Shown here piece after piece: positions 23,383 to 49,466 of a stretch of 64,000 bases of DNA. The position numbers and the translations under genes were made by a program. The stretch is from positions 601,827 to 665,826 of the forward strand of contig CAYRKM010000001.1 in assembly GCA_964425075.1 (NCBI GenBank), written 5' to 3'. The DNA comes from an uncultured Gammaproteobacteria bacterium (lineage in GTDB: Bacteria > Patescibacteriota > Microgenomatia > Levybacterales > GWA1-39-11). Below the pieces are notes generated by a model. The model saw nothing but the letters and a program-made list of their open reading frames with translations, ran no database searches and was not told the DNA's origin. Position 1 is the first letter of the stretch; each line of letters opens with the position of its first letter.

Positions 23383-23385
23383 AGT

Positions 23386-32224: not shown

Positions 32225-32274
32225 AATAACGGATCCGTTATTTTCAAAAGCCCCTTCTTTAAGGAGGGGCTTTT
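32225..32274 (+). terminator. Two tandem intrinsic terminators after DUF4352 gene
   Basis: AATAACGGATCCGTTATTtt perfect palindrome then AAAAGCCCCTtctttaaggAGGGGCTTTT hairpin with T-tract. Confidence 0.6.
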
Positions 32275-32279: not shown

Positions 32280-32306
32280 TTGACACACTACTACACAATG
32301 TAGTAG
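32280..32306 (+). promoter_or_regulatory. Promoter -35 TTGACA with overlapping cop-box-like palindromic operator CTACTACA-caa-TGTAGTAG upstream of csoR
   Basis: TTGACA at 32280-32285; perfect 8-bp inverted repeat at 32288-32306; same motif recurs 3 more times in island. Confidence 0.5.
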
Positions 32307-32326
32307 ATTATCTCTATGGGGGGTAT

Positions 32327-32599
32327 ATGTCATACAGGCCTAAAGATACACAAGAGCGAATAATCCACCGTCTCAAGATCGCAAAGGGGCAACTAGAGAA
32401 AGTAATCAAAATGGTTGAAGAAGATACATATTGTATTGATATCCTTCACCAATCGCACGCTATACAGAAAGCCCTAAAAGAGACAGATCATCTCATGCTT
32501 GAGAATCATCTACAAAAATGTGCCGCTGATGCTATTGGCAAAGGTCGCAAAGATGAAGCAATAAAAGAAGTAATGCAAGTTTTCAAAAAATCTCAATGA
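32327..32599 (+). CDS. csoR: CsoR/RcnR-family metal-sensing transcriptional repressor
   Basis: ~91 aa from Met64 of track ORF; conserved C-x24-H-x3-C style residues (YCIDILHQSHAIQKAL) of CsoR family. Confidence 0.75.
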   Translation: MSYRPKDTQERIIHRLKIAKGQLEKVIKMVEEDTYCIDILHQSHAIQKALKETDHLMLENHLQKCAADAIGKGRKDEAIKEVMQVFKKSQ

Positions 32600-33384
32600 A
32601 AGTGATTTTAATTATTGTTATTTTATTCTTTGCCATAGCCGCGTCAGGATTTCTATATTTTACGGTTAATAGAAATGGCACGAAAGCTCAAGAGAACTCA
32701 AGAACAAAAGTTCAGCAGAGTAATTCAAGCTTACAAGATCTCGTTGTTGCTCCACAAAAACCCACGGATAAAGTAATTGTAGAAAAAGTTACTCTCAAGA
32801 AAGCTGGATTTCTTGCTCTACGTGAGATGGAAGGAGACACACTGAGCCAAATTGTTGAGATAAGTACTTTCTTAAAGGTAGGAACACACACTGATGTGGA
32901 GATTCCTCTTAACAACGTGGATATTACGGATAAGGATCTTATTGTAATGGTTTATGAAGATCAAGAAAATGATCAGGTTTTTAATGATCTTGAGATTCCG
33001 GCAGTCAATGAGAAAGGTTCTTTGATTGCAAGATATGTAAAAACTGGTGAACCCCTTCCAGAAAATCTAGTTGAAGGAAATACATCTGACATGCCTGCAC
33101 ACAGCATGGAAGGAATGGTAACAGTAAAGTATACAGATAATGGATTTACACCAAATAAGATAGAAATTAACGAGGGAGATATGGTTGAATTTCGAAATGA
33201 GAGTAACAGGAATATGTGGGTTGCCTCAGCCAATCACCCGGCACATGAAGTTCTACCTACTTTTGACCAATTCAGAGCGTTTACGAAAGGTTCTGTATAT
33301 CGCTATGTATTCAAAAAGACAGGTTCATGGGAGTATCACGATCACTTAAGTCCAACTTTAGGAGGAGTAGTTGTCGTAAATTAA
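32596..33384 (+). CDS. Membrane-anchored protein with C-terminal cupredoxin-like domain (putative metal-binding)
   Basis: N-terminal TM; C-terminal beta-rich region with His cluster EYHDHL; context in copper island. Confidence 0.35.
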   Translation: MKVILIIVILFFAIAASGFLYFTVNRNGTKAQENSRTKVQQSNSSLQDLVVAPQKPTDKVIVEKVTLKKAGFLALREMEGDTLSQIVEISTFLKVGTHTDVEIPLNNVDITDKDLIVMVYEDQENDQVFNDLEIPAVNEKGSLIARYVKTGEPLPENLVEGNTSDMPAHSMEGMVTVKYTDNGFTPNKIEINEGDMVEFRNESNRNMWVASANHPAHEVLPTFDQFRAFTKGSVYRYVFKKTGSWEYHDHLSPTLGGVVVVN

Positions 33385-33422
33385 ATGTAAATATTGAAAT
33401 GTAGGACATAATAACTTTTACT

Positions 33423-34580
33423 ATGCAATTATCAAAACACATATATACAATTGCTTCATTTGTTTTTGTAATATTCGTATTGGGACTAGCCTTTTTCTCC
33501 GATAAAATAGCTGCTACTAATAACTCAACTGTTAAACAAAATCAAGCCGCAGAAAAATTATATGTAGCCTTAGAGGATGATGGTGCAATCGCTGTGATTG
33601 ATACAAAAGATAATTCACTTCTTGGCAAAATCGATCTTACAGAAAAGAATGGGGAGATGGAAGTCGGTTACTCAGCTCATAATGTGCAGGTAGCACCGGA
33701 TGGCAAAAGTGTTTGGGTAACTGCAAACTTTATGGGTCTTGGGGGACATGAAGGAGAAAATGATACCACTGAAAATGAAGAAACAAAAGAAGCATTTTCA
33801 GACCAAGTGATAATCATTGATCCCCAAAAGGATTCTATAGTAAAACGTATTGATATAGGAGCTGATCAGCATCTTGCCCACATAGTTGTAACCAGGGGCG
33901 GAAAAACTGCCTTTGCTACCGCGCAGGAACCAGGACTGGTATATAAAATAAACGGTGTAACATACGAAGTCGAGAAAACTATCCCTCTTACAAAAGATGC
34001 AGAGCCGCATGGTCTAAGACTTTCAGCAGATGACACAAAAGCTTTTGTTGCACTTATAGATGGAAAAGGCATTGGTGTAGTCGATACCAGAACAAATGAA
34101 GTAAAAACTGTCCCACTTTCAGGAAGCGCTGTACAAACAGCGGTTATTCCTAATACTAACTATATTGCAGCTTCGGTGTACGATACAAAGCAGATAGCAT
34201 TTTATGATACCGTTACAGGGGAAGTTTCCTATGTAGATTTACCTGCTGAATCTGAAGGCGCAATCCAATCATATGCTACACCAGATGGAAGGTATTTATA
34301 TATTGCAGATCAAGGATATTACTTCGGCAAACCAACAAGTGATTATGTGTATGTTATTGATGTTCAAGGGAAGCAGGTTGTTGGCAAAATTCAGGCAGGT
34401 GTTGCGCCTCACGGTGTTGTAGTGTCCCCTGATGGGAAAAGAGCGTATATTACAAATCTTTTAAGTGATGACATTTCAGTTATTGATACAGCCACTGATA
34501 AAGAACTTACCAAAATAAAAGTTGGAAAAATGCCAAATGGTATTAGCTTGTGGTCACACCAATCGGGAGGTACACCTTAA
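33423..34580 (+). CDS. Secreted YVTN-family beta-propeller repeat protein
   Basis: Signal/TM then repeated ~40-aa units (YVxxxxDxxIxVIDT) typical of YVTN beta-propeller. Confidence 0.55.
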
Positions 34581-36859
34581 TGGAAACGAAAACATTTCAA
34601 GTTAAAGGGATGCACTGCGCATCCTGCGCAAATATCATAAAAAGAAAATTAGAAAAGCTCGAGGGAGTTACAACTTGCACTGTTAATTTCGGAACAGAAA
34701 AAGCAGAAGTAGCATTTGATGCTACGAAAGTTGGGTTGCTTCAGATGAATGAGCAAGTTAACAAGCTTGGGTATACTCTTAATACTACTGAAGCTCCTAA
34801 TGCTTCTGAACAATCACAAGTTTCGACAGAAAATGAGGCAAAAGAGCAAAAGCTTAAAGAACTTGAAGAAATGAGGCAGAAAACAGCCTTTGTCATGCCG
34901 ATTGCAGCAGTTGTTTTTGTCTTGATGCTCTGGGAAATTCTTGTCTCTAGGGTAGCGTTTCTTCCTACCTTTCCTCTTTCAATGGATGCATTTAACAGAG
35001 CATCATTTATATTGGCAACTCCTGTCATGTTCTGGATCGGGAAACCTTTTATTAACGGCGTGGTACGGTTTATTAAGTATAGAGCCGCAAATATGGATAC
35101 ACTGGTTGGAATTGGTACATTAGTTGCATACTTCTACAGCAGTATTATGCTTCTTTTTCCTGAAATAAAGACGCTTCTAAACGCTCCTGAAGGGTTATAT
35201 TATGATGTAACAATTGTCGTTATTGGATTTATTACGTTAGGTAAGTATCTTGAAGCAAAATCAAAACTTAAGACTGGTGAGGCAATTGAAAAACTTTTAG
35301 GGCTTGCGGCAAAATCTGCTATTGTGATTCGCGATGGAAAAGAATTAGAGATTCCCATTGGACAAGTAGTTGTCGACGATACGCTTATTGTGAAACCAGG
35401 TCAAAAAATCCCAGTAGATGGAGAGATTATTCAAGGAAAATCCTCAATAGATGAGTCCATGATTACAGGAGAATCAATACCAGTTGATAAAACTGTTGGG
35501 GATACCGTGATCGGTGCAACTATTAATAAACACGGCGCATTTCAAATGAAGGCAACACAGGTAGGAGGACAAACAGTTTTGTCTCAAATAATAAAAATGG
35601 TTGAGGCGGCTCAAGGATCAAAAGCGCCTATTGAAAGGATAGCCGATCAAGTATCAGGAGTTTTCGTTCCCATTGTTTTGGTATTTGCAGTTATTGTCCT
35701 TCTTTTATGGCTCACTGTTGGATCTCAATTTATGCCATTCTCTCAAGCTCTCTCGCTTGGTCTTATTAGCTTTGTAGGAATTTTGGTTATCGCCTGTCCA
35801 TGCGCAATGGGTCTTGCAACTCCCACCGCTGTCATAGTCGGCGTTGGTAAAGCAGCGCAAAATGGTATCTTAATTAAGAATGCAGAAAGTCTTGAGAAGT
35901 TTCAAGGTATTAACTTTGTTGTGATGGATAAAACAGGCACGATTACTAATGGAACACCCGCAGTAACGGATATAAAAGTGACTGCAAAAATAGCGCAAAA
36001 AAAGATATTACAGCTGCTTGCGTCTTTAGAAAAACAATCAGAACACCCATTAGCTCAGGCAGTAGTTGATGCGGCAAAAGATGAAAATATTAGCTTCTTA
36101 TCAGTTTCTCACTTCAAGGCATTGGAAGGAAAGGGGCTTGAAGGAAGTATTGCCGGAACGCATTACTTTGCCGGAAATCTTAAATTAGCAGATGATCTTG
36201 GGTTAAAAGTTGATACAAATTTGATTAAAAAATTAACTTCGCAAGGAAAAACACCAGTAGTCTTTGCAACTAAAAAAGCAATTATTGCCTATGTTGCTAT
36301 AGCCGATACCATCAAAGAAGACGCAAAAGAAGCAGTTGCAGCGCTTCATAAGCTTGGTATCAAAGTTGCAATGCTAACAGGAGATAACAGACGTACTGCA
36401 GAACACATTGCAAAGCAAGTTGGCATTGATCGGGTTATTGCAGAAGTGCTACCAAGCGATAAGGCGAAGGAAGTAAAAAAGCTACAGGATGAAGGGTATA
36501 AAGTCGCAATGGTAGGTGATGGTATTAATGATGCACCAGCGCTTGCTACGGCTGATGTGGGAGTGGCAATGGGCACAGGAACTGATGTGGCTATTGAGTC
36601 TGCAGGAATAACCCTTCTTGGCGGTCACATTTCTAAATTACCAAAAGCAATAAAGCTTTCCCGTAAAACTATGCGGGTTATCAAACAGAATCTGTTCTGG
36701 GCATTTTTCTATAATATTGTCGGGATCCCGGTAGCTGCGGGAGCGCTATATCCATTTATAGGTATTATGCTTTCTCCTGCGATTGCAGGGGCAGCGATGG
36801 CCTTTAGCAGTGTTTCAGTCGTGACCAATTCACTTCTTCTAAAACGTCATAGACTTTAA
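34580..36859 (+). CDS. copA: Copper-translocating P1B-type ATPase (CopA-like)
   Basis: N-terminal [13 protein letters not shown]6 CPC ([11 protein letters not shown]), [15 protein letters not shown]. Confidence 0.9.
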
Positions 36860-36863
36860 CTTT

Positions 36864-37589
36864 ATGAAAATTCTCAAGTTGGTAATAATTTGTATTTTTT
36901 TATTGGCCGTTATAGGAGGAGTTATTGTTTGGCAAAAAACAAACTTCTCTCCTTCAAGCCAACAAATAAATAATACTCAAAATCTTGATAAGGAGTATCA
37001 ACTAGCTGAAGGAAAAATAACTATTCTGGATAGACATAATAAGAAAGAAATAGCCACAATCGACTTAGCTGCAAAAGAAGGAGATTTCCTCATTAAATTT
37101 TATCCCCATGACATTACAACGGTAGATGATAAAAATCAGATTTGGATAACAGTAAGTGCATCACAAGAAGAAATACAGACAATAACCAAAGAACTTGTCG
37201 AAAAAACACAAAGAGATCAGCACGTTATGATGGCTACAGATCAGGTAATTGTCATAGATAAAACTTTAGACAAGATTGTAAAAAGAATCCCAATAGGAGT
37301 AAGTTTAGGATTAGCAGATATTATCATTGCGCCAGATAATAGAAACGCTTATGTTACAGTAGAGGCGAGTGCTGTTTACAAAGTTAACATAGATACCCAT
37401 AAAGTGGAATTAATACAACTGCCTCCTGAAAGTAAACCTCATCAGCTTGCTTTATCAGCTTCAGGAGCAGAACTTTACACAAAAAATCAGGTAAATGGTA
37501 GTGTTTATCTAATTTCGACAAAAACAAATGAAGTTAAGAACTTAAAAGATACTGAAGAGATAAAAAATCTTAGATGGTCGAGTCACTAA
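36864..37589 (+). CDS. Secreted beta-propeller-like protein
   Basis: N-terminal TM; partial YVTN-like repeats (VIVIDKTLDKIVKRIPIG). Confidence 0.4.
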   Translation: MKILKLVIICIFLLAVIGGVIVWQKTNFSPSSQQINNTQNLDKEYQLAEGKITILDRHNKKEIATIDLAAKEGDFLIKFYPHDITTVDDKNQIWITVSASQEEIQTITKELVEKTQRDQHVMMATDQVIVIDKTLDKIVKRIPIGVSLGLADIIIAPDNRNAYVTVEASAVYKVNIDTHKVELIQLPPESKPHQLALSASGAELYTKNQVNGSVYLISTKTNEVKNLKDTEEIKNLRWSSH

Positions 37590-38581
37590 ACGAAATAGTA
37601 ATTATGAATAGAAAGTTAATAATCTTATTTGTATTATTAGTTATTTTTGCAGGAGCATTTTTTCTCTGGCAAAGAAATAACTTCTCTGTCTCGAATCAAC
37701 AAATAGGCACTCCCCAAAATACAAATCCTGAGAGTGATCAGTTATCAGATACTAACAATAATCAGTCGTTTATTGAAGGCTTACAAAATAGGGAGTTTAA
37801 AGGCGGAGAAATAAAAATTGAAGAAACACTAGCACATAATAACTCCTATACAAGTTATATTTTTTCTTATCCCTCAGATAATTTAAAAATTTACGGCATG
37901 ATGAATATTCCCGAAGGAGATGGACCGTTTCCGGTTATTGTTCTTAATCATGGTTACTATAATCCTTCAAGTTTTAATAGCGGTGATGGTACACGAACAA
38001 TGGCAGATATTCTTGCGACAAATGGCTACATTACAGTTGCTTCAGATTATAGAGGACATGGACAATCAGAAGATGATGGACAAAGACGAGGAGGTCATCG
38101 ACCGGAGTTTGCAATTGATGTTTTAAATCTTATCGCTTCAATAAAGAGTATTGATAAAGCAGATCCAAATAGGATTGGTATGTGGGGACATAGTATGGGA
38201 GGAGAGGTGGCTTTGAGAGTTGCAGAAGCAACAGATAAAGTAAAAGCAATTGCATTGTGGGCACCAACGAGCGCAAATGCTTCAGATAATGCTAATTTTT
38301 ATGGAGGAAGGCATAATCCTAATACAAATAATCCTGAGAATGATGGTATATCACCTATTAACTATTTACAGTACATCTCAGCACCAATTAGCTTACATCA
38401 GGGATTAGTTGACGTAGAAGTAAAACCTGAGTGGTCAAAGCAATTGAATGATGCTTTGAAAAAAGAAGGAAAGCAGGTTGAATATTTTGAGTATGAAGGG
38501 CAAGATCATAACTTTAGAAATTTAGGTTGGGATTTGATTTCTCAAAGAACTTTAGAGTTCTATAACAAGTACCTAAAGTAG
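37574..38581 (+). CDS. Alpha/beta hydrolase (dienelactone hydrolase / S9 peptidase-like esterase)
   Basis: GHSMGG nucleophile elbow, downstream Asp and His (QDHNF). Confidence 0.65.
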   Translation: MVESLNEIVIMNRKLIILFVLLVIFAGAFFLWQRNNFSVSNQQIGTPQNTNPESDQLSDTNNNQSFIEGLQNREFKGGEIKIEETLAHNNSYTSYIFSYPSDNLKIYGMMNIPEGDGPFPVIVLNHGYYNPSSFNSGDGTRTMADILATNGYITVASDYRGHGQSEDDGQRRGGHRPEFAIDVLNLIASIKSIDKADPNRIGMWGHSMGGEVALRVAEATDKVKAIALWAPTSANASDNANFYGGRHNPNTNNPENDGISPINYLQYISAPISLHQGLVDVEVKPEWSKQLNDALKKEGKQVEYFEYEGQDHNFRNLGWDLISQRTLEFYNKYLK

Positions 38582-38598
38582 TGATTTGTTATCTAACC

Positions 38599-38615
38599 TG
38601 CTACAATATGTAGTA
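38599..38615 (+). promoter_or_regulatory. Cop-box-like operator tgCTACA-ATA-TGTAGta overlapping TACAAT -10 and start codon of blaI-like gene
   Basis: Inverted repeat CTACA/TGTAG with 3-nt spacer; TACAAT hexamer inside. Confidence 0.45.
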
Positions 38616-38992
38616 TGAAACCTAATCTTGGTGAGCTTGAGCAACAGATCATGGACATTGTTTGGGAGCACAAAAACTGCTCTGCTCGTGATGTTCTTAA
38701 TATGATTGAGAAAGATAAAAAACTTGCATACACCACCGTCGCAACAATCTTACAAAGACTCTTCGATAAAGGTCTTCTTACTCGAAATGAAAATACTGCT
38801 GGACATATTTACTCTCCTAAGGTTTCAAAGGAAAAATACACAAAAAATGTCGCTCAGTCGTTTTTAAAGAACTTCATAAATTCTTTTGGTGATACCGCAA
38901 TCGCCTCATTTGCGGACAGTATTGATAAGCTGCCGGAAAAAAAGAGAAAGTATTTTTTAAAAGTTCTCGACGAGTATGATAAAAATAAATAA
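38615..38992 (+). CDS. BlaI/MecI/CopY-family winged-helix transcriptional repressor
   Basis: LGELEQQIMDIVWEHKNCSARDVL...AYTTVATILQRLFDKGLL matches Penicillinase_R family; lacks CopY C-terminal Cys motif. Confidence 0.8.
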   Translation: MKPNLGELEQQIMDIVWEHKNCSARDVLNMIEKDKKLAYTTVATILQRLFDKGLLTRNENTAGHIYSPKVSKEKYTKNVAQSFLKNFINSFGDTAIASFADSIDKLPEKKRKYFLKVLDEYDKNK

Positions 38993-39983
38993 AAATCTTT
39001 CCTTATTTTCGGGGTTATTTCTTTTATTGGGAACGCTTTTACTTTACACGCTTCAAAAGTTTTCTCCACTTTTAGGTCACGTTACATATTACTGTCAGTC
39101 ATTACTAATAGATGCAAATATGGTCCCGATACCCTATTACCTTAGTATGATTCCATTTGCTTTACTTTTCATTATTTTGGCAATTTCTGTAATAAAGTTT
39201 CTTGTTCTAAACATTAAAGTACAATTTCTTAAATTTAAATTAAAAGGAAGTGTTGCTATTGATACTAGCACTTATAAACTAATCAGTCGGCTTGGATTAC
39301 AAGATAAAGCAATCCTTGTAAAGTCAGATAAGCAGTTTGCATTTTGTTTAGGCGTCAGAATGCCCAAGATTTACTTTTCAACTGGTTTACTTACTCAGTT
39401 GTCACAGAAAGAATTAGAAGCAGTGCTATTACATGAACAATATCATTTAGAAAATTATGATACATTTACTATGATTGTCGCATCAGTCGCGCAATCACTG
39501 TTTCCTTTTTTCCCATTGATTAATGATCTTATTAATAAATACAGGATTGAAAGAGAAATAGCTGCTGACAAATTTGCAGTTGACAAGTTAGCTGACAAAT
39601 ACATACTTATATCGGCCCTTAAAAAACTTCTTGCGTTTCCTACTGTTCAGGCAGCACCAGTTGCTGCTATTGCAGACCAGGATACACTAGAACCAAGAAT
39701 TTACTCGCTTGTAAATAAACCATATGTCAGGCGACACTTTAAACTAAAACATGCATTTATAACCTTATTTTCTTGTTTGGTACTTGCAGCAGTTATTGTT
39801 ATGCCAGTACATGCCAAAGAGCTTCACCACGAAGAACATGATGTCATGATGCTCTGTACAGATGGAGAATGTATGAACTCATGCACAAGCGAAAAGAACT
39901 TGAATAAACTTTATTCTGAAATACCAGGTGCTGAAGTGAATCAGTCAATCTCATCACAACCATACAGTCCAATTCATAAGTAG
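38976..39983 (+). CDS. BlaR1/MecR1-like M56 peptidase membrane protein with Cys/His-rich C-terminal tail
   Basis: 4 TM helices, HEQYHL (HExxH) zinc-protease motif; C-terminal HHEEHDVMMLCTDGECMNSC instead of a penicillin-binding sensor domain. Confidence 0.75.
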   Translation: MIKINKNLSLFSGLFLLLGTLLLYTLQKFSPLLGHVTYYCQSLLIDANMVPIPYYLSMIPFALLFIILAISVIKFLVLNIKVQFLKFKLKGSVAIDTSTYKLISRLGLQDKAILVKSDKQFAFCLGVRMPKIYFSTGLLTQLSQKELEAVLLHEQYHLENYDTFTMIVASVAQSLFPFFPLINDLINKYRIEREIAADKFAVDKLADKYILISALKKLLAFPTVQAAPVAAIADQDTLEPRIYSLVNKPYVRRHFKLKHAFITLFSCLVLAAVIVMPVHAKELHHEEHDVMMLCTDGECMNSCTSEKNLNKLYSEIPGAEVNQSISSQPYSPIHK

Positions 39984-40021
39984 CCTCTAATAAATTTACC
40001 CTTGACAACACTAGAATTATA

Positions 40022-40040
40022 CTACTACAATATGTAGTAG
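40022..40040 (+). promoter_or_regulatory. Cop-box-like operator CTACTACA-ATA-TGTAGTAG within promoter (TTGACA 40002-40007; TACAAT 40026-40031) of dsbA-like operon
   Basis: Perfect 8-bp inverted repeat with 3-nt spacer; overlaps -10. Confidence 0.55.
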
Positions 40041-40058
40041 GCAGTTTTTAACAGTAGT

Positions 40059-40862
40059 ATGACAGAACAAAAAGAAAATAATTATATAACATTACGTGTT
40101 CCAAAGTTTCATAAAACACAACTTTTATTAACAATTGCTTTGATGGTCGCTGCATTTCTTATTGGCTCACTCTGGACAAAACTTCAATACTTGGAAAAAG
40201 GTGGAACTCTTACAAAGGGAGCGACTACTGCAAATGCCCAAGGTGCAGCGCAACAAGTACCACCTCAACAAGCTCCTCCAGAAGACACTACTCCTAAAAA
40301 AGTATCAATTGATGATGACCCGGTTTTAGGTGATAAAAATGCTAAAGTTACACTTATTGACTTCACGGACTATGAATGTCCATTCTGTAAGCGATATTAT
40401 GATGAGACTTTTTCTCAAATAAAAAGAGACTATATTGATACTGGTAAAATGAAATATGTCGTTCGTGATTTACCTTTAAGTTTCCATGCAAATGCTCATA
40501 AAGAAGCGCAAGCTGCAGAGTGCGCACGAGAACAAGGTGGGGACGAAGCATATTTCAAGTATCACGATGAAATATTTAAAAGAACAACCTCAAACGGAAC
40601 AGGTATTGCGCTTGATAAACTTTCAGTAATAGCAAATGATTTAGGCTTAAGTGGTGATACACTACAATCATGTCTTGACGCAGATAAATTTAAAGCAGAG
40701 GTTGATAAAGACTTGGCAGATGCTTCGGCAGTAGGAGCAACTGGCACACCAACATTTTTTATCGGAAAATCAACATCTGATGGTATTATTACAGGTACAA
40801 AAATAGTAGGAGCACAACCATACAGCGCATTTCAGGCAGAAATTGATAAACAACTGAAATAA
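40059..40862 (+). CDS. DsbA-like thioredoxin-fold protein, membrane-anchored
   Basis: N-terminal TM, CPFC active site (DYECPFCKRYY), Thioredoxin_4-like. Confidence 0.75.
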   Translation: MTEQKENNYITLRVPKFHKTQLLLTIALMVAAFLIGSLWTKLQYLEKGGTLTKGATTANAQGAAQQVPPQQAPPEDTTPKKVSIDDDPVLGDKNAKVTLIDFTDYECPFCKRYYDETFSQIKRDYIDTGKMKYVVRDLPLSFHANAHKEAQAAECAREQGGDEAYFKYHDEIFKRTTSNGTGIALDKLSVIANDLGLSGDTLQSCLDADKFKAEVDKDLADASAVGATGTPTFFIGKSTSDGIITGTKIVGAQPYSAFQAEIDKQLK

Positions 40863-40864
40863 TT

Positions 40865-41899
40865 ATGAATTTAGGAGCAGTTTTTTTAACAGGGCTATTT
40901 ACAGGCGGACTTACTTGCCTTGCTGTGCAGGGTGGACTTCTTGCTACAACAATTGCCCAGCGTGAAGAGGAAAAACTTAAGGAGAAAACTAAAACATCCG
41001 GTAATGCCCTGCCAATTCTTTCCTTTCTTGTTGCAAAAGTGGTTGCCTACACTATTCTCGGGTTCTTATTAGGCTGGCTTGGTTCGGTTGTTCAGTTATC
41101 TTTAACAGCTACGGTTATTTTGACAGTTGCAGTCGCTATCTTTATGATCGGTACTGCATTGAACCTTTTAAATGTTCATCCAATATTCCGTTACTTCATT
41201 ATCCAGCCACCTAAGTTTCTAACAAGACTCGTGAGGAATCAGTCAAAAAGTAACAGTATTTTTGCACCAGCTATGCTTGGAGCATTTACTGTATTTATTC
41301 CATGCGGGACTACACAGGCAATGATGGCATTAGCAATTGCCTCTGGTAACCCCCTATATGGAGCAGCAATACTTGCCGCATTTACGTTAGGCACTTCTCC
41401 AGTATTCTTTACACTTGGGTATCTTGCAACAAAACTTGGAGACGCAATGCATCGAAAATTCTTGAAGGTTGCAGCCTATGCGCTTATTCTTCTTGCTGTC
41501 TATAATCTGAATGGAGCAATAGCTCTAACTGGAAGTAACCTGACGCTTGAGAATGCATGGACAAATTTTTACTGCACATTCACTTTCTGTGAGAGGGATT
41601 TTGCACCAACAGCGCAAGCTGCAGTCCCTGTATCAGATGCCACTATAACAATTAATAATGATGGATATAGCCCGAATAACCTTACTGTCAAAGCAGGATC
41701 AAAAGTTACTTTGAAAATTGTCAATGAAGGTGGTGGAGGTTGTACCCAGGCCTTCACCCTACCAAAATATAATATTCAAAAAATAGTTCCGATAGGAAGT
41801 TCTGATCAGGTAACCTTTACTGCGCCGAATGAACCTGGCACGCAACTTGCTTTTATGTGTAGTATGGGGATGTACCGGGGAACAATTAACGTGATATAA
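40865..41899 (+). CDS. CcdA/DsbD-like thiol-disulfide transporter membrane domain fused to C-terminal cupredoxin-like domain
   Basis: Cys in TM1 (GLTCLAVQ) and TM4 (FIPCGTTQ) as in CcdA; C-terminal beta-sandwich with Cys/Met (GGGGCTQ...FMCSMGMY). Confidence 0.55.
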   Translation: MNLGAVFLTGLFTGGLTCLAVQGGLLATTIAQREEEKLKEKTKTSGNALPILSFLVAKVVAYTILGFLLGWLGSVVQLSLTATVILTVAVAIFMIGTALNLLNVHPIFRYFIIQPPKFLTRLVRNQSKSNSIFAPAMLGAFTVFIPCGTTQAMMALAIASGNPLYGAAILAAFTLGTSPVFFTLGYLATKLGDAMHRKFLKVAAYALILLAVYNLNGAIALTGSNLTLENAWTNFYCTFTFCERDFAPTAQAAVPVSDATITINNDGYSPNNLTVKAGSKVTLKIVNEGGGGCTQAFTLPKYNIQKIVPIGSSDQVTFTAPNEPGTQLAFMCSMGMYRGTINVI

Positions 41900-41903
41900 A
41901 CTT

Positions 41904-42131
41904 ATGCAAACAGTAAAATTAAACATTTATGGCATGCATTGTACGAGTTGCGCTTTCAATATTGATGGTGAGCTTGAAGATATGGAAGGAGTTAAAGAAT
42001 CAAAGACAAATTATGCAAAGCAGCAAACTGAAGTAACTTTTGATCCTAAAAAAATTTCACCAGATAAGATTATAAGCATTATTAAAAAGCTTGATGATAG
42101 TTATGATGCTGAAGTTAATAAAGAAGAGTAA
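41904..42131 (+). CDS. copZ: Heavy-metal-associated (HMA) copper chaperone CopZ-like
   Basis: 75 aa with GMHCTSCA MxCxxC motif. Confidence 0.85.
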   Translation: MQTVKLNIYGMHCTSCAFNIDGELEDMEGVKESKTNYAKQQTEVTFDPKKISPDKIISIIKKLDDSYDAEVNKEE

Positions 42132-42136
42132 CATGT

Positions 42137-42646
42137 ATGACAACAGAAAAGAAAGTAATCGGCGGTATTGCACTTTTAACTATAGCCATATTAGTTGGTG
42201 GAGTTTTCTTTTTGTCGGCTAGCTCTAATCAATCCACTTCTGGTAACTCAAATAACAATTCCGATACATCTGTCCCCGAAAGTGAAATTGTTGTTCGTAA
42301 TGGTATGCATTGGCATCCGAAACTATCGATCTATATTAACGGAGAAAAACAGCCTTTCACAAACGGTATTGGTTTAAATGGTGCAGTACATAACCCTATT
42401 CATACTCATGATGACGCTGACAAAGATATTGTTCACATGGAGTTTCAGGGTGTTGTTAGCAAGGAAGATACAAAATTAAGTAACTTCTTTAAGATATGGG
42501 GTAAAGACTTTTCATCAACTCAGATTTTTGATAAGAAAAATGGAGAAGAAGGAACTGTTAAAATGATGGTTAACGGAAAAGAAAACACAGAATTTCAAAA
42601 TTATATGATGAAGGATGGCGATAATATTGAGATACGCTATGAATAA
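42137..42646 (+). CDS. Secreted His-rich hypothetical protein
   Basis: N-terminal TM; HNPIHTHDDADKDIVHMEF His cluster. Confidence 0.35.
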   Translation: MTTEKKVIGGIALLTIAILVGGVFFLSASSNQSTSGNSNNNSDTSVPESEIVVRNGMHWHPKLSIYINGEKQPFTNGIGLNGAVHNPIHTHDDADKDIVHMEFQGVVSKEDTKLSNFFKIWGKDFSSTQIFDKKNGEEGTVKMMVNGKENTEFQNYMMKDGDNIEIRYE

Positions 42647-42851
42647 AGAAATAAAAACAATCGCTCATCTTGCTTGTCCGAAGTGCGGAAAATTACAAAC
42701 AGCAAAAATGCCTACAGATGCCTGTCAGCATTTTTATAAATGTCAAAGCTGTGGTGAAACCATAAAGCCAAAAGAAGGAGATTGTTGTGTATTCTGTTCT
42801 TATGCTGATACAAAATGTCCGCCAAAACAAGCGGAGCAAATGATGATATGA
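42642..42851 (+). CDS. Small Cys-rich (zinc-ribbon-like) protein
   Basis: CPKCG...CQSCG...CCVFCSY Cys pairs in ~70 aa. Confidence 0.4.
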   Translation, partial: NKEIKTIAHLACPKCGKLQTAKMPTDACQHFYKCQSCGETIKPKEGDCCVFCSYADTKCPPKQAEQMMI

Positions 42852-44458
42852 ATACTATGCAAAGAATACTTATTGCTGTCGTTATAGGTATTGCGCTTCT
42901 GGGAGCAGGAATATATTTGTATTCAAATTCTCAGAGGCAAAGAGAAGGATCGAGTAAGACGGGAGAATATTCAAAAGCGGTAAAGAATTATCCTGAAGCA
43001 AAATCTTCTGAGGTTGTAGAGCTAAAGAATGGTGATTCGTACAATTTAACGGCGAGTATAGTAAAGAGAAAAATTAATGGAACAGAAGTAAAAATGCTCG
43101 CCTATAACGGCTCGATTCCAGGCCCACTTATCAAAGTACCACAAGATGCTGAAATTACCATTAATTTCAAAAACGACACTGATGTAGATACAGCCCTACA
43201 TTCACATGGAGTCAGGCTTGAGAATCAATTTGATGGGGTGGTAGATGTTACCCAGAAGGCAATTCCAGTTGGCGGTACTTTTACTTACAAAGTGAAATTT
43301 CCGGATGAAGGGATCTTCTGGTATCATCCTCACTTTCGAGAAGATTATGCTCAAGAACTTGGACTCTATGGTAATTACCTTGTAGCACCTGAACAAAAAG
43401 ACTATTGGGCTGAAGTAGATCGAGAAGAAGCGCTGTTTTTAGATGATATTCTTTTGCAAAACGGGCAGGTAGCAGCTTTCAGCAGAGCAGGGGCAGATCA
43501 TACCTTAATGGGAAGATTTGGGAACGTCATGCTTGTGAATGGTAACGACAATTATAAATTATCGGTTAAACAAGGAGAGAGGATCCGTTTCTATATAACC
43601 AATTCAGCTAATACCAGAGTATTTAATTTTTCTATTCCCAATGCCCGAATGAAGTTAGTAGGCGCGGACAATGGCAAATACGAGCGCGAGGAGTGGGTCG
43701 ATTCGATTGTAATCGGACCGTCTGAACGCTCAGTTATAGAAATCTGGTTTGATCAGGCAGGAGATTATCAGATAGTTAATAAAACCCCTGAAAAAACATA
43801 CACGATGGGCACAATAGCCGTTGCATCTGCTCCAGTAACTACATCATATCTTCTCGTGCCTCGGGTAAATCAAGATTTTATTAATTCTTTATCCTCAATT
43901 CGTCCGCTCTTTACTAAACCTGCTGATAAGACACTTAATATGACTCTTACGATGATGGGAAATATGATGCAGCAAAATCAGAACAATGAGGGTATGCACA
44001 ACATGCATGGAGGCCAAATGATGCCAAATGAAGAAATGCCTTTGAATGACGGAACAGTTGAAAAAATAGAATGGGAAGATGATATGGGACAGATGAACGT
44101 AATGTCCAATACAAAAATGATTACATGGAAACTTGTTGACACAGAAACAAAAGCGGAAAATATGGATATTAAATGGCAGTTTAAAAAAGGAGACAAGATA
44201 AAACTCAAGCTTATCAATGATCCGAAAGCTCAACACCCTATGCAACATCCCATCCATGTTCACGGCCAGCGGTTCTTAGTACTGAATACAAATGGAGTAC
44301 CGAATCAAAACTTGGTTTGGAAAGACACAGTGCTCGTGCAGACCGGTGACACAGTAGAACTACTTGTCGATATGGATAATCCTGGCGACTGGGTGCTTCA
44401 CTGTCATATACCTGAGCATATGGAAGCCGGGATGATGTCACAGTTTGAAGTAATCTAA
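42815..44458 (+). CDS. Multicopper oxidase (CueO/laccase-like) with Met-rich insert (start may be Met12 at 42848)
   Basis: WYHPH and HCHIPEHMEAGMM copper-site motifs; Met-rich segment MMGNMMQQNQNNEGMHNMHGGQMM. Confidence 0.85.
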   Translation: MSAKTSGANDDMNTMQRILIAVVIGIALLGAGIYLYSNSQRQREGSSKTGEYSKAVKNYPEAKSSEVVELKNGDSYNLTASIVKRKINGTEVKMLAYNGSIPGPLIKVPQDAEITINFKNDTDVDTALHSHGVRLENQFDGVVDVTQKAIPVGGTFTYKVKFPDEGIFWYHPHFREDYAQELGLYGNYLVAPEQKDYWAEVDREEALFLDDILLQNGQVAAFSRAGADHTLMGRFGNVMLVNGNDNYKLSVKQGERIRFYITNSANTRVFNFSIPNARMKLVGADNGKYEREEWVDSIVIGPSERSVIEIWFDQAGDYQIVNKTPEKTYTMGTIAVASAPVTTSYLLVPRVNQDFINSLSSIRPLFTKPADKTLNMTLTMMGNMMQQNQNNEGMHNMHGGQMMPNEEMPLNDGTVEKIEWEDDMGQMNVMSNTKMITWKLVDTETKAENMDIKWQFKKGDKIKLKLINDPKAQHPMQHPIHVHGQRFLVLNTNGVPNQNLVWKDTVLVQTGDTVELLVDMDNPGDWVLHCHIPEHMEAGMMSQFEVI

Positions 44459-44535
44459 ATTGTGGAGGAGATGATGACTATGATGGATGAAAAGAGGCAT
44501 AAGCATTAAACAATATCAAGAGGAGAGATCAACAT

Positions 44536-45030
44536 ATGGCAAAGGAACATGAACATAATGTCGAGCCAATAAGAGGAAGCATTTTTGTTTTAACTCTAAA
44601 ACTTGCACTCATACTGCTTATTATAGACTCTCTTTACAGCCTTATATATTATCTCCTTAATTTAGGCTTTGGTATTCCTTTTGATTTCCATCACCACATT
44701 TCAGTAACGCTCTTTATCACACAAGTAGGAAAGATCATACTTGAAATTTTTCTGATTACTTATGTGGTTTTGCAGTGGGCAAATAATACCTATTTTCTTA
44801 CAGATAAGCATTTAATACGAAGAACTGGAATACTTAGCACCGAAGAAGATGTATTTCATTTCGAAAATATCAGATCTATTACAACACACCAGTCTTTATT
44901 AGGAAGGCTTTTTAACTACGGAGACGTTATATTAAAAACAAGTGCTTCAGGAGGGTATCAAGGCGAAGTTACCCTGACAGGAATCTCCAATCCATATAAA
45001 TACGAAAACGCTCTCAAAAAATCCTTTTGA
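44536..45030 (+). CDS. Membrane protein with bacterial PH domain (bPH_2/YdbS-like)
   Basis: Two TM helices then YFLTDKHLIRRTGILSTEEDVFHFENIRSI pattern of bPH_2. Confidence 0.6.
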   Translation: MAKEHEHNVEPIRGSIFVLTLKLALILLIIDSLYSLIYYLLNLGFGIPFDFHHHISVTLFITQVGKIILEIFLITYVVLQWANNTYFLTDKHLIRRTGILSTEEDVFHFENIRSITTHQSLLGRLFNYGDVILKTSASGGYQGEVTLTGISNPYKYENALKKSF

Positions 45031-45033
45031 CTG

Positions 45034-45054
45034 TGTACTACAATTAGTAGTACA
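45034..45054 (+). promoter_or_regulatory. Cop-box-like operator TGTACTACA-ATT-AGTAGTACA upstream of second P-type ATPase
   Basis: 8/9-bp inverted repeat arms; TTGACT -35-like hexamer at 45027-45032. Confidence 0.45.
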
Positions 45055-45081
45055 AATATATTATGCAGATGAGAAATAGTT

Positions 45082-47304: not shown

Positions 47305-47373
47305 TTTTGATTAATCCTCATAGTATTTTGCGTCTGGACTTCAAAGAACGGTTGCGGTACCTTGTCCCCTGAT

Positions 47374-49267: not shown

Positions 49268-49466
49268 GTTTATAAAAGGATTATACCAAAAATTTTCTGT
49301 TTGAATCCTAACTCTGCGGTTAAGTAGGACATATATGAACCTTAGCCTTAATATGGGGATTTTGAGGGTGTTTTGCCGGTCCGAATGTTTCCCGTCTTGA
49401 AGGGGATTTTAGCAAGCCCCTTCAAGCTAAATAGGGAATACGGTCACTCTAGGGTGCCCGTCTCAG

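What the first reader, a model, noticed from the sequence alone, without database searches (positions are those of the whole stretch)
32280..45054. Recurring cop-box-like palindromic operator defines a four-promoter regulon inside the copper island
A near-perfect inverted repeat built on TACA-N3-TGTA occurs at 32288-32306 upstream of csoR, 38599-38615 at the blaI-like start, 40022-40040 upstream of the dsbA-like operon and 45034-45054 upstream of the second ATPase (arm and spacer sequences are in the features). Each overlaps recognisable -35/-10 elements (TTGACA 32280; TTGACA 40002 with TACAAT 40026; TTGACT 45027). CopY/BlaI-family repressors are known to bind TACAnnTGTA-type boxes, and a BlaI/CopY-family repressor lacking the CopY Cys tail is encoded in the island. 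Here the spacer is 3 nt rather than 2.
Basis: partly seen in the sequence, partly recalled or inferred. Interest (0 to 1): 0.72.

Follow-up and report, generated by a model that had tools for sequence, protein, structure and literature searches.

The report
BlaI-type operator controlling a copper island
A 17-base palindrome (TACTAC-N5-GTAGTA) in four promoters of a copper-resistance island in a candidate-phyla-radiation bacterium is very probably the binding site of the island's own BlaI-family repressor, which is paired with a membrane protease that may sense copper; the same arrangement recurs across this poorly understood bacterial group.

Summary
All four palindromes are at the stated coordinates. 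Each lies in front of one of the island's four transcription units.

In 36 related loci from Microgenomates (CPR) genomes plus the window (650 kb) there are 54 exact and 26 one-mismatch copies; shuffles give about 0 and 2.1. Almost all are in promoters. One follows the BlaR1-like gene in 35 of 36 loci, behind a conserved TTGACA -35 box. A copy within three mismatches precedes or abuts the BlaI-like start codon in 33 of 36.

The arms never change in a compensatory way, so this is a protein-read DNA operator rather than an RNA hairpin. The geometry matches published M. tuberculosis BlaI sites, and cyanobacterial PetR uses the same spacing, so the "3-nt spacer" is not new. It is not a CopY cop box.

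Inferred mechanism: the BlaI-like repressor is cleaved by its partner M56 protease. That protease lacks a beta-lactam sensor and instead has conserved extracytoplasmic His/Cys motifs. Cleavage would derepress the DsbA/DsbD-cupredoxin/CopZ/multicopper-oxidase operon, two copper ATPases and csoR.

Binding, proteolysis and the copper signal are all untested. Verdict: a new variant of a known kind, of moderate interest.

The parts
32280..32309 (+). Promoter-like element of the csoR operon: -35 TTGACA (32280-32285), 18-nt spacer, -10 TAGATT (32304-32309). A terminator-like hairpin at 32252-32269 lies just upstream.
   Evidence: 10 of 12 consensus match; terminator-like site. The same TTGAC[A]-N3-operator layout occurs upstream of csoR in L012, L013 and L022.
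32289..32305 (.). Operator site 1, TACTACACAATGTAGTA (extended palindrome 32288-32306). It fills the -35/-10 spacer of the csoR promoter.
   Evidence: 0 mismatches.
32307..32328 (.). Degenerate CsoR-type box ATTATCTCTATGGGGGGTATAT, between the -10 and the csoR ATG. This is a second, different operator.
   Evidence: homologous loci carry ATATCCC-N4/5-GGGGATAT at the same position. The window copy does not match that consensus within 3 mismatches.
32327..38581 (+). Transcription unit 1: csoR (32327-32599), DUF7282/cupredoxin protein (32596-33384), YncE-like beta-propeller (33423-34580), Cu P1B-ATPase with HMA domain (34550-36859), unknown protein (36864-37589), alpha/beta hydrolase (37574-38581).
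   Evidence: the ATPase passes TIGR01511, copper-translocating ATPase.
38599..38615 (.). Operator site 2, TGCTACAATATGTAGTA (1 mismatch). It contains a -10-like TACAAT (38602-38607), and its last base is the A of the BlaI-like ATG. This is the autoregulatory site; the mRNA is probably leaderless.
   Evidence: In 34 regions (33 related loci plus the window) the ATG lies 7-15 nt after the -10.
38615..38992 (+). BlaI/MecI/CopY-family winged-helix repressor, 125 aa, with no C-terminal Cys motif. Recognition helix LAYTTVATILQRL. Invariant S98-F99 aligned with the BlaI N101-F102 scissile bond.
   Evidence: (PF03965, 5e-28).
38976..39983 (+). BlaR1-like M56/M48 membrane zinc protease, 335 aa, HEQYH at 153-157, no PBP-type sensor domain. 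Conserved extracytoplasmic H35-x2-Y-Y-C40 loop and C-terminal tail E282-x-H284 ... C294-x4-C299-x3-C303. The ORF overlaps the blaI stop codon.
   Evidence: top fold matches are S. aureus BlaR1, 8EXP and related entries.
40002..40031 (+). Promoter of the dsbA-like operon: -35 TTGACA (40002-40007), 18 nt, -10 TACAAT (40026-40031). The -10 lies inside the operator.
   Evidence: 11 of 12. Of 36 homologous promoters, 28 have a perfect TTGACA and 8 have 5 of 6, at 17-18 nt.
40023..40039 (.). Operator site 3, TACTACAATATGTAGTA (extended palindrome 40022-40040).
   Evidence: An exact copy occupies this position, after blaR, in 35 of 36 related loci.
40059..45030 (+). Transcription unit 3: DsbA-like thioredoxin-fold protein (40059-40862), DsbD_2-cupredoxin fusion (40865-41899), CopZ-like HMA protein (41904-42131), two unknown proteins (42137-42646 and 42615-42851), multicopper oxidase (42815-44458), bacterial PH-domain protein (44536-45030).
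45027..45056 (+). Promoter-like element of the second ATPase: -35 TTGACT (45027-45032), 18 nt, -10-like TACAAA (45051-45056).
   Evidence: Read directly. It was not picked up by the scanner, so it is a weaker consensus match.
45036..45052 (.). Operator site 4, TACTACAATTAGTAGTA (extended palindrome 45034-45054). It fills the -35/-10 spacer.
   Evidence: 0 mismatches. A comparable site lies upstream of the HMBD-ATPase in L035.
45082..47304 (+). Transcription unit 4: Cu P1B-ATPase with an N-terminal HMBD zinc-ribbon-type metal-binding domain.
   Evidence: TIGR01511, 591 bits against a cutoff of 397.

Best explanation
The palindrome TACTAC-N5-GTAGTA (core CTACA-N3-TGTAG) is the DNA operator of the island's BlaI-family repressor (38615-38992), which binds as a dimer.

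At the blaI-blaR and dsbA-like promoters the operator contains the -10 hexamer (TACAAT or TACACT) and the transcription start. At the csoR and HMBD-ATPase promoters it fills the -35/-10 spacer. Bound repressor therefore blocks RNA polymerase at all four transcription units.

Repression is most likely relieved by the co-transcribed BlaR1-like M56 zinc protease (38976-39983). By analogy with BlaR1/BlaI and PetP/PetR, it would cleave the repressor at or near the invariant S98-F99 when it is activated from outside the cell. In place of the beta-lactam sensor domain it has a short extracytoplasmic module: a loop with H35 and C40, and a tail with H284, C294, C299 and C303. I propose that this module binds copper, or is oxidised by copper.

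Derepression would then turn on:
- thiol-disulfide repair and copper handling outside the membrane (DsbA-like protein, DsbD-cupredoxin, CopZ, multicopper oxidase);
- a second copper ATPase;
- more BlaI/BlaR, giving feedback;
- the csoR-copA operon, which also needs cytoplasmic Cu(I) release of CsoR, so it would behave as an AND gate.

Shown here: the motif, its statistics, its positional conservation, its overlap with promoters, its linkage to the BlaI/BlaR pair, and the gene content. Inferred: who binds the motif, the proteolysis, and that copper is the signal.
For: 1. Statistics. There are four sites in 64 kb against about 0.25-1.2 expected. In 650 kb (36 related loci plus the window) there are 54 exact and 26 one-mismatch sites against about 0 and 2.1 in shuffles. 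In 716 kb around distant (about 30% identity) BlaI-family genes there are 0 exact and 1 one-mismatch sites.

2. Position. An exact site follows blaR in 35 of 36 loci, and a site within 3 mismatches lies directly upstream of blaI in 33 of 36. In 36 regions (35 loci plus the window), the site after blaR sits behind a TTGACA box that is perfect in 28 and 5 of 6 in the other 8, 17-18 nt upstream of the TACA[AC]T inside the site.

3. Regulon content. Extra sites precede csoR, DsbD-cupredoxin, plastocyanin-family cupredoxins, a two-domain multicopper oxidase, an HMBD Cu-ATPase, a HlyD/CusB-like protein and an M23 peptidase.

4. Inverse test. Of 120 arbitrary metagenome contigs chosen only because they hold TACTACA-N3-TGTAGTA, 14 encode a BlaI homologue beside the site and about 20 encode copper-island genes. 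The figure is 0 of 120 for viral contigs.

5. Protein-read DNA rather than RNA. The six core arm pairs show no compensatory change in 75 distinct sites; departures are single mismatches. There is no Rfam match.

6. Family fit. The repressor matches PF03965 at 5e-28. The operator geometry equals the published M. tuberculosis BlaI sites TACGACAGCGAGTAGTA and TACGACCGGTCGTCGTA (supplement of PMC4757040). The recognition helix is nearly identical to that of Mtb BlaI: LAYTTVATILQRL against LAYTTVMAVLQRL. The half-site CTACA equals the mec half-operator AGACTACAT.

7. Protease partner. It matches M56/M48. HExxH is present in all 37 homologues. The AF2 model has pLDDT 79.5 and its best PDB matches are S. 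aureus BlaR1. The BlaI N101-F102 cleavage site (PMC9834060) aligns with S98-F99, which is invariant in 120 homologues.

8. Copper precedent. PetP/PetR is a sensor-domain-less BlaR/BlaI pair that degrades the repressor in response to copper and uses a GACA-N3-TGTC operator.
Against: - No experiment links this protein to this DNA; the assignment rests on co-occurrence and family analogy.
- The copper signal is inferred only from the regulated genes and from the His/Cys/Met content of the protease's outer segments. Several homologues keep only one Cys in the tail (L016, L018, L031, L034), so the full three-Cys motif cannot be essential.
- The most conserved target is a DsbA-like oxidoreductase, so the direct signal could be thiol or envelope stress rather than copper itself.
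- Site 2 in this window has a poor -35 (3 of 6).
- Only 64 kb of the source genome could be examined, so sites elsewhere in the genome are not excluded.
- Neither protein reaches any curated NCBIfam equivalog cutoff.
Confidence: 0.7

Rival explanations
1. The operator is bound by the BlaI-like repressor as above, but the signal is not copper binding. The BlaR1-like protease reports extracytoplasmic thiol/disulfide or envelope stress, for example oxidation of its own Cys-containing loop and tail. Copper would be only one of several inducers.
For: The one target present in nearly every locus is a DsbA-like oxidoreductase, usually followed by a DsbD-type reductase. An M23 peptidase carries a site in L032 and L038, and an L,D-transpeptidase gene follows blaR in L009, although no site was found there. 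The conserved Cys residues of the protease are extracytoplasmic and could form disulfides. CenIR shows that sensor-less BlaIR systems with unknown, non-beta-lactam signals exist (abstract of PMC13492132).
Against: Most regulated genes are copper-specific: two TIGR01511 Cu-ATPases, CopZ, a multicopper oxidase and cupredoxins. The system sits beside csoR and Cu-ATPase genes in most loci. The invariant His and Glu in the tail (E282, H284) look like metal ligands rather than redox residues.
Confidence: 0.2
2. The BlaI-like repressor senses copper directly, as CopY does, for example through the conserved Cys22 and His64. It leaves the DNA without proteolysis, and the adjacent M56 protein only turns the repressor over.
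For: Cys22 is present in 98% of the 120 closest homologues. CopY_TcrY is the best-scoring NCBIfam model.
Against: There is no CxC or CxCx4CxC motif, and the score is far below the CopY cutoff (53.5 against 122 bits). Cys22 is replaced by Ser, Gly or Thr in L015, L016, L019, L020, L025, L027, L029, L091 and L158, and those loci still carry the operator. The protease gene is invariably fused in an operon with the repressor gene, and the cleavage-site-equivalent block GDTAIASFA is the most conserved part of the repressor.
Confidence: 0.07
3. The palindromes are bound by CsoR, the other copper repressor of the island, rather than by the BlaI-like protein.
For: Site 1 lies upstream of csoR, and CsoR-family repressors autoregulate.
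Against: A separate GC-tract palindrome of the usual CsoR type (ATATCCC-N4/5-GGGGATAT) lies right before csoR in eight related loci, whether or not the TACTAC site is present. The TACTAC site always flanks blaI-blaR, including in loci with no csoR within 10 kb. Its half-site is the BlaI/MecI type.
Confidence: 0.02
4. The palindromes act as RNA hairpins (terminators, attenuators or processing sites), or are chance or mobile repeats.
For: Each can fold into a 7-8 bp hairpin of -5.6 to -9.5 kcal/mol, and three were flagged by the terminator-like scan.
Against: - There is no compensatory change in the six core pairs across 75 distinct sites, and the innermost pair is broken in 18 of them.
- The -10 lies inside the palindrome or abuts it, so most of the left arm would not be transcribed.
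- None is followed by an uninterrupted run of T.
- There is no Rfam match.
- Chance is excluded.
Confidence: 0.01

Closest known systems
Mycobacterium tuberculosis BlaI (Rv1846c) with BlaR (Rv1845c) and its operator
   Same: The operator geometry is the same, hexamer-N5-hexamer. The published sites are TACGACAGCGAGTAGTA (blaI) and TACGACCGGTCGTCGTA (blaC), and one half-site, GTAGTA, is identical. The recognition helix is nearly identical. Both systems autoregulate. From memory and unverified: the Mtb BlaR also lacks a penicillin-binding sensor domain.
   Different: The left hexamer differs at one base (TACTAC against TACGAC). The regulon differs: copper and thiol homeostasis here, against blaC and ATP synthase genes in Mtb. 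The organism is a CPR bacterium. The protease here carries a conserved His/Cys outer loop and tail.
Cyanobacterial PetR/PetP copper switch (Synechocystis slr0240/slr0241)
   Same: A BlaI-family regulator is paired with an M48/M56 protease that lacks the beta-lactam sensor, and the two ORFs overlap. Copper triggers protease-dependent loss of the regulator. The operator is an inverted repeat with the same spacing (GAC-N5-GTC, which is GACA-N3-TGTC). A cupredoxin gene (petE) is derepressed by copper.
   Different: The operator bases differ (GACA against TACA/CTACA). PetR also activates petJ, and its regulon has four genes for photosynthetic electron carriers rather than for resistance. PetP's proposed ligands are two Met residues in the outer loop and it has no Cys/His tail. 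The copper response of the CPR system is untested.
CopY/CopR repressors and the cop box (Enterococcus, Streptococcus, Lactococcus)
   Same: Same protein superfamily (PF03965). Both repress copper-export operons. The operator has a dyad with a TACA/TGTA core overlapping the promoter.
   Different: The cop box is KACA-N2-TGTA (RNYKACANNYGTMRNY), whereas the spacer here is 3 nt. CopY senses Cu(I) directly through a C-terminal CxCx4CxC motif, which is absent here. CopY has no partner protease. The protein scores below the CopY_TcrY cutoff.
Staphylococcus aureus and Bacillus licheniformis BlaI/BlaR1 and MecI/MecR1
   Same: A repressor and an M56 protease share an operon and the operon is autoregulated. 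The half-site CTACA matches the mec half-operator AGACTACAT. The BlaI scissile bond N101-F102 aligns with the invariant S98-F99. BlaR1 is the best structural match of the protease model.
   Different: The central spacer is 2 nt in bla and mec. BlaR1 carries a roughly 250-aa penicillin-binding sensor domain that is absent here. The signal there is a beta-lactam and the targets are a beta-lactamase or PBP2a. Those promoters have two dyads, whereas there is usually one here.
CsoR/RicR copper repressors
   Same: A CsoR homologue is encoded in the island, and a CsoR-type GC-tract box lies at its promoter.
   Different: It is a different protein fold with a different operator. It is a second, cytoplasmic copper sensor working alongside the element studied here, not the same element.

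Membership tests
BlaI/MecI/CopY (Penicillinase_R, PF03965) repressor-operator systems | Repressor with an N-terminal winged-helix Penicillinase_R domain | tested here: met
   PF03965 at E 5.2e-28, covering 112 of 115 profile positions. PDB sequence hits are BlaI, MecI and Mtb BlaI.
BlaI/MecI/CopY (Penicillinase_R, PF03965) repressor-operator systems | Dyad-symmetric operator with a TACA/TGTA-type core overlapping the promoter | tested here: met
   The CTACA-N3-TGTAG core overlaps the -10 or the -35/-10 spacer at all four window sites and in 36 related loci. The spacing differs from the bla, mec and cop N2 spacing, but equals that of Mtb BlaI and PetR.
BlaI/MecI/CopY (Penicillinase_R, PF03965) repressor-operator systems | Autoregulation: an operator in front of the repressor's own gene | tested here: met
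   A site within 3 mismatches lies in the 90 nt before, or abutting, the blaI-like start in 34 of 37 regions (33 of 36 related loci plus the window).
BlaI/MecI/CopY (Penicillinase_R, PF03965) repressor-operator systems | Physical binding of the repressor to the operator | not testable with these tools
   Needs EMSA, footprinting or DAP-seq.
BlaR1/MecR1-type proteolytic signalling (M56) | Adjacent membrane M56 zinc protease with HExxH | tested here: met
   PF05569 at 1e-14 and PF01435 at 4e-12. HExxH is present in 37 of 37 homologues. The ORF overlaps the blaI stop codon. The best fold matches are BlaR1 entries 8EXP, 8EXQ and 8EXR.
BlaR1/MecR1-type proteolytic signalling (M56) | C-terminal extracellular penicillin-binding (class D beta-lactamase-like) sensor domain | tested here: not met
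   The protein is 335 aa. Only about 58 residues follow the last TM helix and no transpeptidase domain is detected. It scores 41.5 bits against the blaR1_generic cutoff of 400.
BlaR1/MecR1-type proteolytic signalling (M56) | Repressor cleaved at a conserved site in the dimerisation domain (BlaI N101-F102) | tested here: inconclusive
   The aligned dipeptide is S98-F99, invariant in 120 homologues and lying in the most conserved block, GDTAIASFA. P1' Phe is kept and P1 differs. BlaR1's own autocleavage site is S283-F284. Cleavage itself was not tested.
CopY/TcrY copper repressors and the cop box | C-terminal CxCx4CxC (or CxC) Cu(I)/Zn(II) site | tested here: not met
   The C-terminus is ...KYFLKVLDEYDKNK, with no Cys after residue 22.
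CopY/TcrY copper repressors and the cop box | Operator KACA-N2-TGTA (RNYKACANNYGTMRNY) | tested here: not met
   All sites have a 3-nt central spacer. The cop box definition is from PMC7253601.
CopY/TcrY copper repressors and the cop box | Score above the curated equivalog threshold (TIGR02698) | tested here: not met
   53.5 bits against a cutoff of 121.95.
PetR/PetP-type copper-responsive BlaI/BlaR pair | BlaI-family regulator with a sensor-domain-less M48/M56 protease in one operon | tested here: met
   the PetP description is.
PetR/PetP-type copper-responsive BlaI/BlaR pair | GAC-N5-GTC core operator | tested here: not met
   The spacing is the same, but the bases are TAC-N5-GTA within TACTAC-N5-GTAGTA.
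PetR/PetP-type copper-responsive BlaI/BlaR pair | Copper- and protease-dependent degradation of the regulator | not testable with these tools
   Requires in vivo or in vitro degradation assays.
CsoR operator | GC-tract pseudo-palindrome (C4-5 ... G4-5) recognised by a CsoR tetramer | tested here: not met
   The TACTAC palindrome has no C or G tracts. A distinct ATATCCC-N4/5-GGGGATAT box fills that role at csoR promoters.

The most novel reading that the evidence does not exclude
The BlaR1-like protease is a direct extracytoplasmic copper receptor. Its first outer loop (invariant H35, Y38, C40) and its C-terminal tail (E282, H284, C294, C299, C303) would together form a metal site that replaces the beta-lactam sensor domain and its loop contact in BlaR1. 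Copper binding there would switch on cleavage of the repressor. If so, this is a lineage-wide proteolytic copper-sensing pathway in Microgenomates (CPR). It would work in series with CsoR at a dual-operator promoter, and it drives largely leaderless transcripts. It would be one of the first regulatory circuits defined for CPR bacteria, and a structural model for how PetP-type proteases sense copper.
Probability: 0.4. Interest if true: 0.72.

Novelty: new variant of a known kind. Interest (0 to 1): 0.58.

Why it matters
Almost nothing is known about gene regulation in CPR/Patescibacteria because they are essentially uncultured. Here a complete sensor-repressor-operator-regulon circuit can be read from sequence. 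It has about 80 aligned operator sites and conserved sigma-70-type -35/-10 boxes, and it implies leaderless transcripts.

The circuit extends BlaI/BlaR-type proteolytic signalling, best known from beta-lactam resistance, to copper and thiol homeostasis outside cyanobacteria.

It also offers concrete candidate ligands (His/Cys in the outer loop and tail) for a question left open for PetP: how does a sensor-domain-less BlaR-type protease detect copper?

The tandem BlaI-type and CsoR-type operators at csoR promoters suggest that extracytoplasmic and cytoplasmic copper signals are integrated at one promoter.

The operator itself is an ordinary member of a known operator class, so the cis-element alone is not surprising.

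Tried and rejected
- Megablast of the island against PLSDB plasmids and INPHARED phages found no relatives.
- An exact-protein lookup returned only short Logan contigs with no names, so the source organism is inferred from homologue names only.
- Literature searches for a BlaI/BlaR-copper link in CPR found nothing. The apparent "BlaI" hits in Patescibacteria papers were the author name Blainey.
- The Sala et al. 2009 paper on Mtb BlaI is not held. Its binding sites were recovered from the supplement of PMC4757040.
- The motif scan of viral contigs gave only chance matches: 0 of 120 were linked to BlaI.
- Distant BlaI-family loci (Poribacteria and others, about 30% identity) have no ACA-N(1-5)-TGT palindromes upstream, so they say nothing about spacing evolution. 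They served as a negative control.
- A CsoR-box consensus scan found no match in the window at up to 3 mismatches; the window copy is degenerate.
- The RNA hairpin/terminator reading was rejected.
- Direct Cu sensing by Cys22 was judged unlikely because that residue is not invariant.

Full report
**1. The observation**

- site 1: 32288-32306, CTACTACACAATGTAGTAG;
- site 2: 38599-38615, TGCTACAATATGTAGTA;
- site 3: 40022-40040, CTACTACAATATGTAGTAG;
- site 4: 45034-45054, TGTACTACAATTAGTAGTACA.

A search for CTACTACA-N3-TGTAGTAG at up to 3 mismatches returns exactly these four in 64 kb. The expectation is 0.25, and no shuffle out of 100 reaches four.

Site 4 reads TACA-ATT-AGTA. The core also has one chance match inside csoR, at 32425.

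A better description is TACTAC-N5-GTAGTA. It fits the four sites with 0, 1, 0 and 0 mismatches. The only other hit at up to 2 mismatches is a 2-mismatch match inside an ORF, at 46130.

**2. Gene context**

Pfam and NCBIfam scans show four co-directional transcription units, each preceded by one site.
- Unit 1: csoR, a DUF7282/cupredoxin protein, a YncE-like propeller, a Cu P1B-ATPase with an HMA domain, an unknown protein, and an alpha/beta hydrolase.
- Unit 2: a 125-aa BlaI/MecI/CopY-family repressor and an overlapping 335-aa M56/M48 BlaR1-like protease.
- Unit 3: a DsbA-like protein, a DsbD_2-cupredoxin fusion, a CopZ-like protein, two unknown proteins, a multicopper oxidase, and a bacterial PH-domain protein.
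- Unit 4: a second Cu P1B-ATPase with an HMBD domain.

Both ATPases pass the curated threshold for copper-translocating ATPases (TIGR01511).

The two best-placed promoter-like matches in the region coincide with sites 3 and 1: 40002-40031 (TTGACA-18-TACAAT) and 32280-32309 (TTGACA-18-TAGATT). A terminator-like hairpin at 32252-32269 separates the csoR promoter from the upstream gene.

**3. Source and relatives**

There is no close DNA relative among plasmids or phages. Homologues of the repressor and the protease come from Patescibacteria/CPR of the Microgenomates group: Woesebacteria, Levybacteria, Gottesmanbacteria, Daviesbacteria and Shapirobacteria.

A scan of species-representative genomes gave 37 such loci (L007-L043), with repressor identity of 50-81%. 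L008 duplicates L007, which leaves 36 distinct loci. The scan also returned 43 loci around distant BlaI-family genes of about 30% identity, mostly from Poribacteria.

**4. Phylogenetic footprinting**

In the 36 distinct loci plus the window (650 kb, 89% coding) there are 54 exact and 26 one-mismatch copies of TACTAC-N5-GTAGTA. Shuffles give about 0 and 2.1. The apparently coding copies were artefacts of my greedy ORF caller: they sit at the two standard promoter positions. One site, a one-mismatch copy at L019:1211, may be an exception.

An exact copy lies between the protease stop codon and the next gene in 35 of 36 loci. A copy within 3 mismatches lies within the 90 nt before the repressor start, usually abutting it, in 33 of 36.

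The control set of 716 kb around distant BlaI-family genes has no exact copy and one one-mismatch copy. Their upstream regions lack ACA-N-TGT palindromes.

Synteny is conserved: blaI, blaR, the site, then dsbA, usually followed by dsbD-cupredoxin and copZ. Cu-ATPases, csoR and a multicopper oxidase lie nearby.

**5. Inverse test**

Fourteen of them encode a BlaI homologue next to the site, at 29-90% identity. About twenty carry island genes, with the site in the same relative positions. None of 120 viral contigs carrying the pattern does.

So the motif predicts the protein, as well as the protein predicting the motif.

**6. Promoter architecture**

Two layouts recur.

*Type I* (the dsbA-like and blaI promoters). 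The -10 hexamer lies inside the operator: TACA[AC]T, made of the left arm plus the spacer. For the dsbA-like promoter, 28 of 36 regions have a perfect TTGACA and the other 8 have 5 of 6, placed 17-18 nt upstream. For the blaI promoter the -35 is weaker (TTGAAA, TTGATA, TTGCAA).

In all 34 blaI cases the ATG lies 7-15 nt after the -10. In ten of them it is exactly 7 nt. In 26 of 36 dsbA-like cases it lies within 20 nt. There is no room for a Shine-Dalgarno leader, so these mRNAs are probably leaderless or nearly so. This is an inference.

*Type II* (the csoR and HMBD-ATPase promoters). The layout is TTGAC[AT], then 3 nt, then the 17-bp operator, whose last two bases (TA) begin the -10.

Either way, a bound dimer would occlude RNA polymerase.

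**7. DNA operator, not RNA structure**

I aligned 80 sites, 75 of them distinct. Seven columns are invariant and six more are at least 90% conserved, while the central three bases vary.

The six core arm pairs show no change on both sides. All departures are unpaired single mismatches, and the innermost pair is broken in 18 sites.

The hairpins are only -5.6 to -9.5 kcal/mol, and nothing in Rfam matches.

Repressor identity falls to about 50% across these loci, yet its recognition helix (LAYTT.AT.LQRL) is at least 95% conserved among the 120 closest database homologues. That matches the invariance of the arms.

**8. Who binds it**

The evidence is indirect but coherent.
- The site always flanks the blaI-blaR pair, including in loci with no csoR nearby.
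- Autoregulation is typical of the family (PMC8457756).
- The half-site CTACA is the one in the mec half-operator AGACTACAT (PMC1935004).
- The full geometry equals the published M. tuberculosis BlaI sites, TACGACAGCGAGTAGTA and TACGACCGGTCGTCGTA (supplement of PMC4757040, citing Sala et al. 2009).
- The recognition helix is almost identical to that of Mtb BlaI, LAYTTVMAVLQRL.

CsoR is excluded. Its own GC-tract box, ATATCCC-N4/5-GGGGATAT, lies separately just before csoR in eight related loci. The window has a degenerate copy at 32307-32328.

Four csoR promoters carry both operators in tandem: the window, L012, L013 (2 mismatches) and L022.

**9. How repression is probably relieved (inference)**

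The repressor has no CopY-type Cys motif. It scores below the CopY_TcrY, BlaI and MecI equivalog cutoffs.

Cys22 is common (98% of close homologues) but is replaced in nine loci that keep the operator. Direct metal sensing by the repressor is therefore unlikely.

The partner protease:
- has HExxH in all 37 homologues;
- gives an AF2 model with pLDDT 79.5 and pTM 0.73;
- has S. aureus BlaR1 cryo-EM structures as its top PDB matches (E 3e-6; TM-scores are low, 0.38-0.50, as expected for a domain-swapped dimer that has an extra sensor domain).

It lacks the penicillin-binding sensor domain. In a 45-sequence alignment the invariant residues outside the catalytic core are H35, Y38 and C40, in the first outer loop (motif HxxYYCQS), and P277, A280, E282, H284 and C303 in the tail after the last TM helix. 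D289, C294 and C299 are at least 90% conserved. The model predicts a beta-hairpin in each of these two segments.

In BlaR1 the extracellular loop EL1 sits in the sensor domain's active site (PMC9834060). In PetP two conserved Met residues in the equivalent loop were proposed as copper ligands. By analogy, I propose that the loop and the tail form a copper site, or a copper-sensitive thiol site.

The BlaI scissile bond N101-F102 aligns with S98-F99 of the CPR repressor. That dipeptide is invariant in 120 homologues and lies in the most conserved block, GDTAIASFA. Ser-Phe is also BlaR1's own autocleavage pair.

**10. Regulon and logic**

Besides the four window units, sites in other loci precede:
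- DsbD-cupredoxin genes;
- plastocyanin-family cupredoxins;
- a two-domain multicopper oxidase;
- a HlyD/CusB-like protein;
- an M23 peptidase;
- DUF7282-cupredoxin genes.

The set is dominated by extracytoplasmic copper handling and thiol-disulfide maintenance. That fits a sensor facing outward. The csoR-copA unit, with its two operators, would need both signals.

**11. Comparison with what is known**

The system works like PetR/PetP and BlaI/BlaR1. Its operator is of the M. tuberculosis BlaI type. It is not a CopY/cop-box system, because the Cys motif, the N2 spacing and the family threshold all fail. It is also not a canonical BlaR1 system, because it has no sensor domain.

It is already documented for PetR (GACA-N3-TGTC), for Mtb BlaI and for a C. 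thermocellum BlaI (hexamers 5 nt apart).

I found no paper linking BlaI/BlaR systems to copper islands in CPR bacteria. The library held is incomplete.

**12. Verdict**

- That this is a real, conserved cis-regulatory operator: about 0.95.
- That the BlaI-like protein binds it: about 0.85.
- That protease-mediated copper sensing relieves repression: about 0.5-0.6.

Novelty: a new variant of a known kind. Interest is moderate. The cis-element is conventional, but the circuit is a rare readable regulatory system in CPR bacteria, and it gives a testable model for copper sensing by sensor-less BlaR-type proteases.

Noticed in passing
window 32307-32328; L007, L009, L011, L012, L013, L019, L022 just upstream of csoR: A second, different palindrome of CsoR type (ATATCCC-N4/5-GGGGATAT) lies immediately before the csoR start codon in related loci. 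The window copy (ATTATCTCTATGGGGGGTATAT) is degenerate. Four csoR promoters (the window, L012, L013 and L022) carry it in tandem with the BlaI-type operator, which suggests dual control.
   Followed up: partly
window 38602-38617 and 40026-40061; class A and B sites in L007-L043: The start codons of the blaI-like genes (34 of 34) and of most dsbA-like genes lie only 7-15 nt after the -10 hexamer embedded in the operator, with no Shine-Dalgarno sequence. That implies leaderless or near-leaderless mRNAs in these CPR bacteria.
   Followed up: partly
window 18833-31313 and 47362-49537: The copper island is flanked upstream by three DNA methylase genes (one fused to ParB-N), a ResIII/SNF2 helicase, and terminase-like genes (HTH_Tnp_1_2 and Terminase_6). 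Downstream are a large serine recombinase and tRNA-Gln (49466-49537, minus strand). Serine recombinases also follow the island in L013 and L014. It may be an integrated mobile element or a prophage remnant.
   Followed up: partly
L012 and L013 (both from OZ246394.1, 1.61 Mb): One CPR chromosome carries two paralogous copies of the whole csoR-ATPase-blaI-blaR-dsbA-dsbD-copZ island, each with its own operators.
   Followed up: no
window 42137-42646 and 42615-42851: Two ORFs with no significant Pfam match (169 aa and 78 aa; the latter has a faint zinc-ribbon hit) travel with the regulon in many loci. Homologues at 49-73% identity follow dsbA or precede the multicopper oxidase. They are unknown components of the copper response.
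   Followed up: no
L016 689-705 and 745-761: One locus has two tandem operators, 56 bp apart, upstream of blaI. This is reminiscent of the two dyads of bla, mec and cop promoters. All other loci have a single operator per promoter.
   Followed up: no
L032 17843-17859 and L038 19086-19102: Exact operator copies precede a coiled-coil M23 peptidase gene several kb from the island. Separately, an L,D-transpeptidase (YkuD) gene has been inserted between blaR and dsbA in L009. Both hint at a link to cell-wall remodelling.
   Followed up: partly
L007-L009, L011-L015, L023, L025, L027-L031, L034, L036, L038, L042 (record titles): Many TPA MAG records holding this Microgenomates-type island are titled 'uncultured Gammaproteobacteria' or 'Pseudomonadales'. 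These are probably mislabelled taxonomy in the source records.
   Followed up: no
window 32425-32435: TACATATTGTA inside the csoR coding sequence matches the minimal TACA-N3-TGTA core but lacks the flanking CTAC/GTAG bases. I judged it a chance match.
   Followed up: yes
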